From a virus (Duplodnaviria > Caudoviricetes), in the IMG/VR virus record IMGVR_UViG_3300028392_000072, positions 1 to 59,175 of that record: a stretch of 59,175 nucleotides of DNA; one strand, 5' to 3'. The notes beneath the pieces are model-generated. The model made no database searches. It was not told the origin of the DNA and saw nothing but the letters and a program-made list of their open reading frames with translations. Shown piece after piece: positions 58,349 to 58,512 of the stretch. A program made the position numbers and the translations under genes. How positions within the stretch are numbered: the first letter of the stretch is position 1; every line of letters starts with the position of its first letter.

Positions 58349-58427
58349 TACCCCAGGTAGGATTCGAACCTACATTTTCAGTTCCGTTACGATTAGTCGC
58401 TTAGAAGGCGACCTCGGCTACTGAGGC
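58349..58427 (-). tRNA. D-armless tRNA-Arg (TCT)-like
   Basis: GCCTCAG/CTGGGGT; 8-nt linker TAGCCGAG; GTCGC-CTTCTAA-GCGAC; 22-nt variable region; canonical T-arm. Confidence 0.75.
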
Positions 58428-58433
58428 ATTTTG

Positions 58434-58512
58434 TCGGTACGATAGGACTTGAACCTACATTTGCAACACCATTACGAATATCCACATTATCAGTGTGGCT
58501 CGGTACGCACCG
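58434..58512 (-). tRNA. D-armless tRNA-Ile (GAT)-like
   Basis: CGGTGCG/CGTACCG; linker TACCGAG; CCACA-CTGATAA-TGTGG; 23-nt variable region; T-arm. Confidence 0.75.

What the first reader, a model, noticed from the sequence alone, without database searches (positions are those of the whole stretch)
58349..58512. Two adjacent D-armless tRNAs sharing a novel architecture with a relocated GG motif
Seen: tRNA-Arg(UCU)- and tRNA-Ile(GAU)-like genes have normal acceptor, anticodon and T arms. Both replace the D-arm with TA(G)CCGAG and carry a 22-23 nt variable region sharing TCGTAAYGG...TG(A/C)AAAT. Linker CGA can pair with variable-region TCG, and TAAYGG looks like a D-loop, which could restore the GG/T-loop elbow from the other side. 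The leader contains ATT and AGA codons, which argues these act as Ile/Arg decoders. Established: D-armless tRNAs are known mainly from metazoan mitochondria. Inference: a permuted tRNA fold, possibly resistant to host tRNases.
Basis: partly seen in the sequence, partly recalled or inferred. Interest (0 to 1): 0.85.

Follow-up and report, generated by a model that had tools for sequence, protein, structure and literature searches.

The report
Phage tRNAs with a rewired D-arm
Two neighbouring phage genes encode Arg and Ile tRNAs in which the anticodon arm sits inside a split D-stem and the D-loop has become a bulge, a design shared by many phages and missed by standard tRNA finders.

Summary
On the minus strand, 58512-58434 (anticodon GAU, Ile) and 58427-58349 (UCU, Arg) have normal acceptor, anticodon and T arms, no 5' D hairpin, and a 22-23 nt variable region. 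ARAGORN misses both. Rfam tRNA scores them 35.8 and 36.7 bits, only in a local scan.

They are not decayed copies. I collected 115 distinct relatives from 85 phage loci, including cultured Pseudomonas PA11-like phages and Vibrio phage D260. All stems covary.

It extends by two further covarying pairs, so a helix of up to 5 bp carries TAAYGGN as a bulge.

That bulge behaves like a D-loop:
- Its third base covaries with the last base before the T stem (A/T 108, G/C 5), as R15-Y48 does.
- The base after GG is A in 88 of 89 Arg types (the ArgRS determinant A20) and mostly T in Ile types.
- Canonical Arg and Ile tRNAs of related phages carry the same loop motif.

Most likely these are working decoders. 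Expression, charging, three-dimensional fold and nuclease resistance are all untested. Seven literature searches found no description.

The parts
58434..58512 (-). Gene A: D-arm-rewired tRNA-Ile(GAU), 79 nt. The anticodon is at 58491-58489.
   Evidence: RF00005 at 35.8 bits in the local scan. Segments verified. Close homologs in L001, L002, L103 and L185.
58349..58427 (-). Gene B: D-arm-rewired tRNA-Arg(UCU), 79 nt. The anticodon is at 58405-58403.
   Evidence: RF00005 at 36.7 bits. First row of alignment A2. The MFE fold contains the acceptor, CGA/UCG, anticodon and T helices.
58414..58418 (-). Gene B, 5' strand of the split D' helix: GC (58418-58417) plus CGA (58416-58414). It directly follows U8-A9 (58420-58419).
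   Evidence: A2 columns 10-14. All 5 pairs show changes on both sides.
58390..58392 (-). Gene B, 3' strand part 1 of the D' helix (TCG). It pairs with CGA.
   Evidence: A2 columns 37-39. 39 of 56 fully paired against 12.9 in permutations. RNAalifold predicts the helix independently.
58383..58389 (-). Gene B, D-loop-like bulge TAACGGA. By analogy these are A14, R15, G18, G19 and A20.
   Evidence: Motif present in 81 of 81 D-armless parses found without requiring it. A after GG in 88 of 89 Arg types.
58381..58382 (-). Gene B, 3' strand part 2 of the D' helix (AC). It pairs with GC at 58418-58417. In this gene the pair 11-49 is a C.A mismatch.
   Evidence: A2 columns 49-50: pair 10-50 is GC 32, AU 16, UA 1, other 4; pair 11-49 is CG 30, UA 11, UG 3, AU 2, other 7.
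58374..58380 (-). Gene B, conserved connector TGAAAAT. Its last T is the Levitt-like partner of the third bulge base.
   Evidence: A/T 108, G/C 5, exceptions 2; Fisher p = 2.5e-9.
58500..58503 (-). Gene A, 5' strand of the D' helix: C (58503) plus CGA (58502-58500).
   Evidence: Register A of the 7-nt-linker class: 22 of 58 fully paired against 6.6 in permutations. Nucleotide 10 covaries with the base before TTGAAAAT: C-G, G-C, T-A (rows).
58467..58477 (-). Gene A: TCG (58477-58475), D-loop-like bulge TAATGGT (58474-58468), and G (58467) pairing with C at 58503.
   Evidence: T after GG in 13 of 14 GAU types.
58459..58466 (-). Gene A, connector TTGCAAAT before the T arm.

Best explanation
These are two working members of a large, phage-borne class of elongator tRNAs, mostly Arg with some Ile, whose core is rewired.

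After U8-A9 the chain forms the 5' strand of a short helix (D') and runs straight into the anticodon arm. After the anticodon arm the chain returns and pairs back as the 3' strand of D'. That 3' strand is interrupted by a 7-9 nt bulge, TAAY(Y)GGN. A conserved UGAAAAU connector then leads to a normal T arm. The cloverleaf's four-way junction becomes a three-way junction, with the anticodon arm nested inside the D-stem.

Shown:
- The helices and their covariation.
- The covariation of the bulge's third base with the last connector base.
- The isotype-specific base after GG.

Inferred:
- The bulge plays the D-loop's part. Its A pairs with U8, its R with Y48, and its GG docks on the T loop to make the elbow.
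- The base after GG is read as position 20 by host ArgRS or IleRS.
- The RNAs are cut out of the tRNA array, charged, and used to read AGA and AUU/AUC, the codons this 27.6% G+C phage uses most.

Why phages keep this design beside canonical copies is not known. Escape from a host or phage factor that recognises the normal D-arm is one possibility.
For: Family and selection:
- 115 distinct members in 85 loci.
- On the MAFFT alignment A2 (53 sequences), 95.4% of cells are paired against 63.2% in shuffles. 22 of 23 pairs have double changes. The covariation score is 0.901 against 0.247, reached by 0 of 500 shuffles. Slid controls give 36-44% paired.

D' helix:
- 39 of 56 triplets are fully paired against 12.9 +/- 2.4, reached in 0 of 10000 permutations. 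11 of 14 distinct combinations pair. Slid registers give 0-5.
- RNAalifold predicts the same helix unaided.
- Two extra pairs were found by mutual information and counted.

D-loop equivalence:
- The motif is present in 81 of 81 D-armless parses from a scan that did not require it.
- Levitt-like covariation: A/T 108, G/C 5, other 2.
- GG is followed by A in 88 of 89 Arg types and by T in 13 of 14 GAU, 5 of 7 UAU and 2 of 2 CAU types. The discriminator is A in 23 of 23 Ile-type genes.
- A20 is the main bacterial ArgRS determinant, and A73 and U20 are listed for Ile (PMC9976931, Table 1 and the Arg section, passages seen).
- Canonical Arg and Ile tRNAs of related phages carry the same AAYGGA / AAYGGT D-loop.

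Decoder role:
- AGA is 86% of Arg codons, and ATT+ATC are 58% of Ile codons.
- In Vibrio phage D260 it is the only Arg tRNA among 18.
- In Pseudomonas phage vB_PaeM_Ty it is the only RF00005 hit in 50,051 nt.
- In L103 a canonical Arg(UCU) occupies the slot that the rewired one holds in the window.
- CCA is encoded in 45 of 89 Arg members.
- Array spacing matches that of the neighbouring canonical tRNAs.
Against: - There are no expression, processing or charging data. No RNA run is listed.
- The three-dimensional fold is inferred only.
- The helix is short and imperfect. 17 of 56 type-1 members have a mismatch (mostly A.C) in the pair nearest the anticodon stem.
- Gene B has a C.A mismatch at pair 11-49.
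- One freshwater contig variant of gene B repairs that pair but puts an A.C in the middle of CGA/TCG.
- The top anticodon-stem pair is unpaired in 16 of 53 sequences.
- Sub-classes with 7-nt linkers use different registers, and one has a bulged G.
- Both huge phages LR756502 and LR745206 also hold canonical Arg(UCU), Ile(GAU) and Ile(UAU) genes. The rewired copies are therefore not needed there for plain decoding.
- The LR745206 Ile copy has a degenerate T loop and an acceptor mismatch, so some copies may be decaying.
- Gene A lacks the C4-G69 and C29-G41 determinants listed for E. coli tRNA-Ile.
- Five D' pairs plus tertiary layers may make the anticodon-to-elbow arm longer than in a canonical tRNA.
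Confidence: 0.75

Rival explanations
1. The RNAs are tRNA-like decoys or regulators rather than decoders. They could act as sponges for a tRNA-targeting nuclease, as baits for a modification enzyme or synthetase, or as processing signals in the tRNA array. On this view selection keeps the shape, but the RNA is not used on the ribosome.
For: The huge phages hold canonical genes with the same anticodons beside the rewired ones. Standard finders reject them. The window holds other odd tRNA-like elements in the same array.
Against: The anticodon loop keeps U33 and R37, and real Arg or Ile anticodons occur in 112 of 115 members. The identity base after GG and the discriminator follow the anticodon. 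In D260 and vB_PaeM_Ty there is no other Arg tRNA. In L103 a canonical Arg(UCU) replaces it at the same place. The anticodons match the phage's commonest codons.
Confidence: 0.15
2. The secondary structure is right, but the helix is only an extension of the anticodon stem, as in human mitochondrial tRNA-Ser(GCU). On this view the GG motif does not dock on the T loop and there is no canonical elbow or core.
For: [quoted passage not shown] No structure or probing data exist for this family.
Against: Unlike the mitochondrial case, the T loop is canonical (TTCRANY in all 115, though the scans required most of it). The bulge motif is invariant where it was not required (81 of 81). Its third base covaries with the pre-T-stem base as R15-Y48 does. 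The base after GG tracks amino-acid identity.
Confidence: 0.08
3. The two genes are decayed pseudogenes of canonical tRNAs that lost the D-arm and gained junk in the variable region.
For: Low Rfam scores and no ARAGORN call. One relative (the LR745206 Ile copy) has a damaged T loop.
Against: 115 distinct sequences keep the same architecture, with compensatory changes in all helices. The architecture is conserved from freshwater huge phages to cultured Pseudomonas and Vibrio phages.
Confidence: 0.02

Closest known systems
Canonical bacterial and phage tRNA-Arg and tRNA-Ile (class I cloverleaf)
   Same: A 7-bp acceptor stem, a 5-bp anticodon stem with a 7-nt loop, and a 5-bp T stem with a TTCRANY loop. 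U8-A9 follows the acceptor stem. The same A-A-Y-(Y)-G-G-A/T loop motif occurs, along with the same anticodons and discriminator trends.
   Different: There is no D hairpin between positions 9 and 26. The anticodon arm is nested between the two strands of the D-like helix. The D-loop motif is a bulge in that helix's 3' strand. A 7-8 nt conserved connector replaces the 4-5 nt variable loop. The junction is three-way, not four-way.
Metazoan mitochondrial D-armless tRNAs, e.g. human mt-tRNA-Ser(GCU) (PMC9427863, passages seen; PMC4013460, listing and abstract start only)
   Same: No D hairpin. The nucleotides that replace it pair to lengthen the anticodon arm.
   Different: The mitochondrial RNA is short, has a remodelled T loop and lacks any tertiary core. 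The phage class is 75-89 nt in the 115 members. It keeps a canonical T loop, a GG motif and Levitt-like covariation. It carries Arg or Ile identity and lives in phages of bacteria.
Non-canonical bacterial and phage tRNAs with 8/4 or 9/3 acceptor branches (allo-tRNAs; PMC5389517, listing and abstract start only)
   Same: Natural tRNAs from metagenomes, some of them in phages, that depart from the 7/5 cloverleaf and are missed or mis-scored by standard tools.
   Different: Those change the acceptor/T branch and keep a D-arm. Here the acceptor/T branch is standard (7/5) and the D-arm is rewired.
Phage tRNAs proposed to evade host tRNA-targeting defences through anticodon-loop changes (PMC10264068, listing and abstract start only)
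   Same: Phage-encoded tRNAs that may exist to survive attack on host tRNAs. This is a possible rationale for keeping a divergent copy beside a canonical one.
   Different: That proposal concerns anticodon-loop substitutions in otherwise normal tRNAs. Here the loop is ordinary and the body is rewired. No nuclease link has been tested.

Membership tests
tRNA (Rfam RF00005, canonical cloverleaf) | 7-bp acceptor stem with a discriminator base | tested here: met
   98.4% of cells paired and 7 of 7 pairs with double changes on A2. Genes A and B each form 7 standard pairs, with one and two G.U pairs respectively.
tRNA (Rfam RF00005, canonical cloverleaf) | 5-bp anticodon stem and a 7-nt loop with U33 and purine 37 | tested here: met
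   The loops are CTGATAA and CTTCTAA. The stem is 92.8% paired and 5 of 5 pairs covary. U33 and R37 were scan filters for the family set.
tRNA (Rfam RF00005, canonical cloverleaf) | 5-bp T stem with a TTCRANY loop | tested here: met
   TTCAAGT and TTCGAAT. The stem is 99.2% paired. The viral scans required most of the loop.
tRNA (Rfam RF00005, canonical cloverleaf) | D-arm hairpin between positions 9 and 26 | tested here: not met
   The 15 model positions are replaced by 4-5 nt. The linker pairs instead with the variable region.
tRNA (Rfam RF00005, canonical cloverleaf) | Score at or above the family's gathering threshold (29 bits) | tested here: met
   36.7 and 35.8 bits in the local scan. 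Neither is listed in the whole-window gathering run. ARAGORN calls neither.
tRNA (Rfam RF00005, canonical cloverleaf) | Processed, aminoacylated and used in decoding | not testable with these tools
   No RNA run is listed for the window.
Mitochondrial-type D-armless tRNA (mt-tRNA-Ser(AGY) kind) | Loss of the tertiary core and elbow: non-canonical T loop and no D-loop-like GG | tested here: not met
   The T loop is canonical. The GG motif occurs in 81 of 81. Levitt-like covariation is present. The contrast is with the PMC9427863 passage.
Mitochondrial-type D-armless tRNA (mt-tRNA-Ser(AGY) kind) | D-replacement nucleotides extend the anticodon stem | tested here: met
   The D' helix stacks by sequence continuity on the anticodon stem.
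Class II tRNA (long variable arm) | The long variable region folds into its own stem-loop, with a normal D-arm present | tested here: not met
   RNAalifold predicts no helix inside columns 40-57. The region pairs with the 5' linker. There is no D hairpin.

The most novel reading that the evidence does not exclude
A widespread tRNA body plan, largely confined to phages, is a three-way junction with the anticodon arm nested in the D-stem and the D-loop as a bulge. It is fully active in charging and decoding, yet is not recognised by a factor that reads the normal D-arm: a host anti-phage tRNase, or a phage enzyme that destroys canonical tRNA-Arg or tRNA-Ile. Phages would then keep it as an attack-proof supply for their commonest codons. 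It would also show that the L-shape can be built from a permuted strand order.
Probability: 0.2. Interest if true: 0.95.

Novelty: new variant of a known kind. Interest (0 to 1): 0.85.

Why it matters
The cloverleaf is among the most conserved RNA folds. Outside animal mitochondria, natural tRNAs without a D hairpin are hardly known.

Here a whole class keeps the D-loop's sequence logic (A14/R15-like bases, GG, the identity base at '20') while changing the order in which the strands are connected. If it is charged and decodes, three things follow:
- It shows how much of the tRNA core is topology-independent.
- It gives synthetases and the ribosome a natural 'permuted' substrate to study.
- It offers a new scaffold for tRNA engineering.

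There is also a practical consequence. ARAGORN returned no call at genes A and B or in a 2.5-kb stretch of vB_PaeM_Ty holding its copy, and called the LR745206 Arg copy only with odd boundaries. The records annotate no tRNA at these sites, so phage tRNA inventories are incomplete. For example, D260 appears to lack any Arg tRNA and PA11-like phages appear to have no tRNA at all.

Cultured phages carry the gene, so the questions can be tested directly. Its co-occurrence with canonical isoacceptors in huge phages raises the question of what selective agent acts on tRNA bodies.

Tried and rejected
- Alternative registers for the helix. Sliding either strand by 1-2 nt gives 0-5 of 56 fully paired. 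Slid partners on A2 give 36-46% paired. Rejected.
- A self-contained hairpin in the variable region (class II style). RNAalifold predicts none. Rejected.
- Reading the 'anticodon arm' as a D-arm. No second arm with an anticodon-type loop exists downstream. Rejected.
- Thermodynamic support. Single-sequence folds have z-scores of -1.35 and -0.96, and gene A's MFE is a different fold. This is uninformative.
- Expression. No RNA holder is listed, and only DNA contigs could be laid.
- Cellular genomes. Only 3 rows were family members (L246, L294, L320, all on contigs I did not characterise). A fourth parse (L314) was spurious, and the rest were chance matches in coding DNA. I therefore cannot give a phage-versus-cell ratio.
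- Pfam on 20 of the window's 54 ORFs of at least 150 aa found GluRS-like and GlnRS-like enzymes, but no ArgRS, IleRS or tRNA-processing enzyme.
- Literature. Seven searches found no description of D-armless or rewired phage tRNAs. The 2020 review of non-canonical tRNAs has no occurrence of 'phage' or 'virus'.
- Fremin et al. 2023 report a candidate viral RNA (DNAVirus_2961) that sometimes overlaps ARAGORN tRNA-Arg calls. Its figure and supplements could not be seen, so it may or may not be this family. Subscription journals are not covered.
- I built no covariance model, made no three-dimensional model, and used no protein fold or complex tools.
- Rows dropped. 4 of 119 scan hits were canonical tRNAs mis-parsed and were removed. 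2 of 55 type-1 sequences (76-nt genes from L183 and L234 with a shorter variable region) were left out of alignment A2. A1 was a preliminary alignment and is not used for counts.
- In the 115-member set, TA at positions 8-9, the GG motif, U33 and R37 were filters. Only one search tests TA and the motif without requiring them.

Full report
**What is in the window**

The window is a 59,175-nt phage contig and is the whole record held. Its G+C content is 27.6%. It encodes the following:
- a gp32-like protein
- a ribonucleotide reductase small chain
- a sugar-synthesis cluster
- a ClpB-like ATPase
- GluRS-like and GlnRS-like synthetases
- a GOLLD RNA
- 13 tRNAs called by ARAGORN, all on the minus strand

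The finding lies in the tRNA array at the right end. On the minus strand, 58512-58434 (gene A) and 58427-58349 (gene B) sit between tRNA-Asn and a further element. They are separated from each other by 6 nt, the same kind of short A-rich spacer as between the canonical tRNAs.

The segments are as follows:
- Gene A: acceptor CGGTGCG, TA, C, CGA, G, anticodon arm with loop CTGATAA (GAU), ATAT, TCG, TAATGGT, G, TTGCAAAT, T arm (loop TTCAAGT), acceptor, A.
- Gene B: GCCTCAG, TA, GC, CGA, G, arm with loop CTTCTAA (UCU), TAA, TCG, TAACGGA, AC, TGAAAAT, T arm (TTCGAAT), acceptor, A.

ARAGORN calls neither gene, and the whole-window Rfam run does not list them. A local scan gives RF00005 at 35.8 and 36.7 bits (gathering score 29). 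In those alignments the D-arm positions are deleted and a 19-20 nt insertion sits in the variable region.

**Relatives**

BLAST against deposited phages found both genes, in the same order, in two uncultured huge phages: LR756502 (642 kb) and LR745206 (635 kb). It also found the Arg-type gene in Vibrio phages D260, D254 and D51.

One was keyed on GTAANGG plus the T arm. The other was keyed on TGAAAAT plus the T arm, and so was blind to the linker, the helix and the GG motif.

A structural scan of all fetched loci gave 119 distinct candidates. Four of these were canonical tRNAs mis-parsed and were removed. That leaves 115 distinct members in 85 loci.

Their anticodons are UCU 47, UCG 19, GAU 14, ACG 13, CCU 9, UAU 7, CAU 2, and one each of GCG, CUU, UCA and CCA. 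That makes 89 Arg, 21 Ile (GAU and UAU), 2 CAU and 3 others.

In that set, TA at 8-9, the GG motif, U33 and R37 were filters. As a check without the TA and motif filters, I took the 124 distinct matches to the second pattern:
- 81 parse as D-armless, 14 as canonical tRNAs, and 29 as neither.
- All 81 D-armless parses contain TA[AG]N0-3GG.
- 78 have TA at 8-9. The other 3 are one-base parse shifts of genes that also have it.

**Cultured phages**

Further BLAST searches found the Arg(UCU) gene in ten Pseudomonas phages: PA11 (two records), TC6, PSA11, IME180, HHBS10_2, vB_PaeM_Ty, FBPa8, PP21 and Boevelstad. It is nowhere annotated as a tRNA.

Between vB_PaeM_Ty and PA11, two T-stem pairs change compensatorily. 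Boevelstad has CAC/GTG where the others have CCC/GGG.

The single scan of prokaryote genomes was swamped by chance matches. Only 3 of 120 rows were family members, so I can say only that the class is easy to find in viral contigs.

**The helix**

In the 56 members with an 8-nt linker, I paired the three bases before the last linker base with the three bases before TAA.
- 39 of 56 are fully paired, against 12.9 +/- 2.4 when partners are permuted. None of 10000 permutations reached 39.
- Sliding either strand gives 0-5.
- Eleven complementary combinations occur: CGA/TCG, CGG/CCG, CAC/GTG, CCC/GGG, CAG/CTG, CCG/CGG, CGT/GCG, CCT/AGG, CGG/CTG, CAA/TTG and TCC/GGA.
- The other 17 keep two pairs and have a mismatch, mostly A.C, next to the anticodon stem.

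On a MAFFT alignment made without structure (A2, 53 of the 55 regular type-1 genes), the counting tool finds all three pairs with double changes. RNAalifold predicts the helix on its own.

The two bases right after TA pair with the two bases right after GG-N:
- Pair 10-50: GC 32, AU 16, UA 1, other 4.
- Pair 11-49: CG 30, UA 11, UG 3, AU 2, other 7.

The 5' strand (positions 10-14) is therefore continuous. Its partner strand is split by the TAAY(Y)GGN segment, which is a 7-9 nt bulge.

With these pairs included, the whole structure has 95.4% paired cells against 63.2% in shuffles. The covariation score is 0.901 against 0.247, reached by 0 of 500 shuffles.

Gene B has a C.A mismatch at pair 11-49.

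Gene A belongs to the 7-nt-linker class, with one base instead of two before CGA. In its sub-group that base covaries with the base before TTGAAAAT: C-G in the window, L148 and L155, G-C in L187, and T-A in L212 (rows).

Across all 58 seven-nt-linker genes two registers are in use. One has 22 fully paired (permuted mean 6.6, maximum 14). The other has 25 fully paired (permuted mean 9.7, maximum 18). The principle is general, but the details differ between sub-classes.

**The bulge as a D-loop**

The standard numbering used here (U8-A14, R15-Y48, G18/G19 with T-loop 55/56) is recalled knowledge. The G19:C56 pair and the T54-A58 pair are also named in the PMC9427863 passages.

1. The third bulge base and the last base before the T stem covary. 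A with T occurs 108 times and G with C 5 times, with 2 exceptions (Fisher p = 2.5e-9). The five G/C cases lie in different isotypes and linker classes. This is the behaviour of the Levitt pair R15-Y48.
2. The base after GG follows the anticodon. It is A in 88 of 89 Arg genes, T in 13 of 14 GAU, 5 of 7 UAU and 2 of 2 CAU genes. All 23 of those Ile-type genes have discriminator A. The identity review lists A20 as the main bacterial arginine determinant, and A73, U20 and others for isoleucine (PMC9976931, Table 1 and Arg section).
3. Canonical Arg and Ile tRNAs in the related phages have D-loops with the same core: AAYGGA, or AACTGGA, for Arg and AATGGT or TTTGGT for Ile.

Together these make it likely that the bulge does the D-loop's work. 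That would mean pairing with U8 and with the pre-T-stem base, docking GG on the T loop, and presenting 'position 20' to the synthetase. This step is inference, since nothing here measures the fold.

**Is it a decoder?**

In favour:
- AGA is 86% of Arg codons and ATT+ATC are 58% of Ile codons in the window.
- The window's other tRNAs also read A/U-ending codons.
- D260 has 17 ARAGORN tRNAs for 16 anticodons and no Arg. The rewired ACG gene fills that gap.
- vB_PaeM_Ty has a single RF00005 hit in 50,051 nt, and it is this gene.
- In the closest viral contig, L103, the rewired Ile gene is followed by a canonical Arg(UCU) where the window has the rewired one.
- Half of the Arg genes (45 of 89) encode CCA.

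Against, or at least complicating:
- Both huge phages hold canonical Arg(UCU), Ile(GAU) and Ile(UAU) genes as well as rewired ones. In LR745206 the rewired and canonical Arg(UCU) genes are adjacent.
- The LR745206 Ile copy has a T loop CTCAGAA and an A.G in the acceptor stem.
- One freshwater contig carries a gene B variant (C11 to T, G13 to A). It repairs pair 11-49 but places an A.C inside CGA/TCG.
- There are no RNA data.

I put the decoder reading at about 0.75, a non-decoding tRNA-like role at 0.15, a mitochondrial-style extended stem without an elbow at 0.08, and pseudogenes at 0.02.

**Comparison with known kinds**

The genes meet the tRNA definition for three arms and for the Rfam score, but fail it for the D hairpin.

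They resemble mitochondrial D-armless tRNA-Ser in one respect: the replacement nucleotides lengthen the anticodon arm (PMC9427863). They differ in keeping a canonical T loop, a GG motif and core covariation.

They are not class II tRNAs, because the long variable region does not fold on itself.

Seven full-text searches found no description. One paper's unnamed candidate RNA may overlap the family, and its supplements were not seen.

I rate the finding a new variant of a known kind. It is of high interest because cultured phages make it testable.

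Noticed in passing
window 58237-58343 (minus strand): A ~107-nt tRNA-like element sits in the array between gene B and tRNA-Leu(UAG). It has a 7-bp acceptor-like stem (GAATGTG/CACATTC), a discriminator A, the same CAAAAT trailer as its neighbours, and a T-arm-like hairpin with a non-canonical loop (AGAATAC). It has three inner hairpins, one of which carries TAATGGA in its loop. Fold z-score is -2.55. 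Contigs of run X1 join 58233 to 58344, so relatives lack exactly this cassette. It is absent from L001 and L103. No Rfam family matches it.
   Followed up: partly
window 57976-58059 (minus strand); L103 about 1677-1760: A tRNA-Cys(GCA)-like gene with normal acceptor and T arms but an oversized D region. The D region appears to hold an extra small hairpin capped by GAAA. It scores only 19.6 bits on RF00005 and ARAGORN does not call it. A similar gene lies in the related contig L103.
   Followed up: partly
window 35976-36052 (minus strand), next to GOLLD at 36063-36468: ARAGORN 'tRNA-???' with an 8-nt anticodon loop (CTATTCAG), lying directly downstream of the GOLLD RNA. LR756502 holds a similar gene with loop CTTTTCAG. 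The window also encodes a GluRS-like enzyme at 55562-57064.
   Followed up: no
window 47910-47991 (minus strand): One of three tRNA-Gln(UUG) genes is 82 nt long. It has a long variable arm that looks like a GAAA-capped hairpin, which is unusual for Gln. A GlnRS-like gene lies just beside it at 46146-47783.
   Followed up: no
window 58527-58598 (Asn) and 57898-57970 (Thr), minus strand; also L002 and L103: Canonical-looking tRNAs whose T loop reads ATCGTAA or ATCGTTA instead of TTCRANY. The same is seen in the Asn genes of LR745206 and L103.
   Followed up: no
window 37392-39323 (minus strand): A 643-aa ORF with intein splicing and LAGLIDADG domains inserted in a flavodoxin/FMN-reductase-like protein.
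   Followed up: no
L355 (OQ555403.1 4932-5014), L372 (NC_007808.1 47672-47754): In PA11-like Pseudomonas phages the rewired tRNA-Arg gene overlaps the annotated end of an HNH or homing endonuclease (or hypothetical) CDS, or lies in unannotated DNA. It is the only tRNA-model hit in vB_PaeM_Ty.
   Followed up: partly
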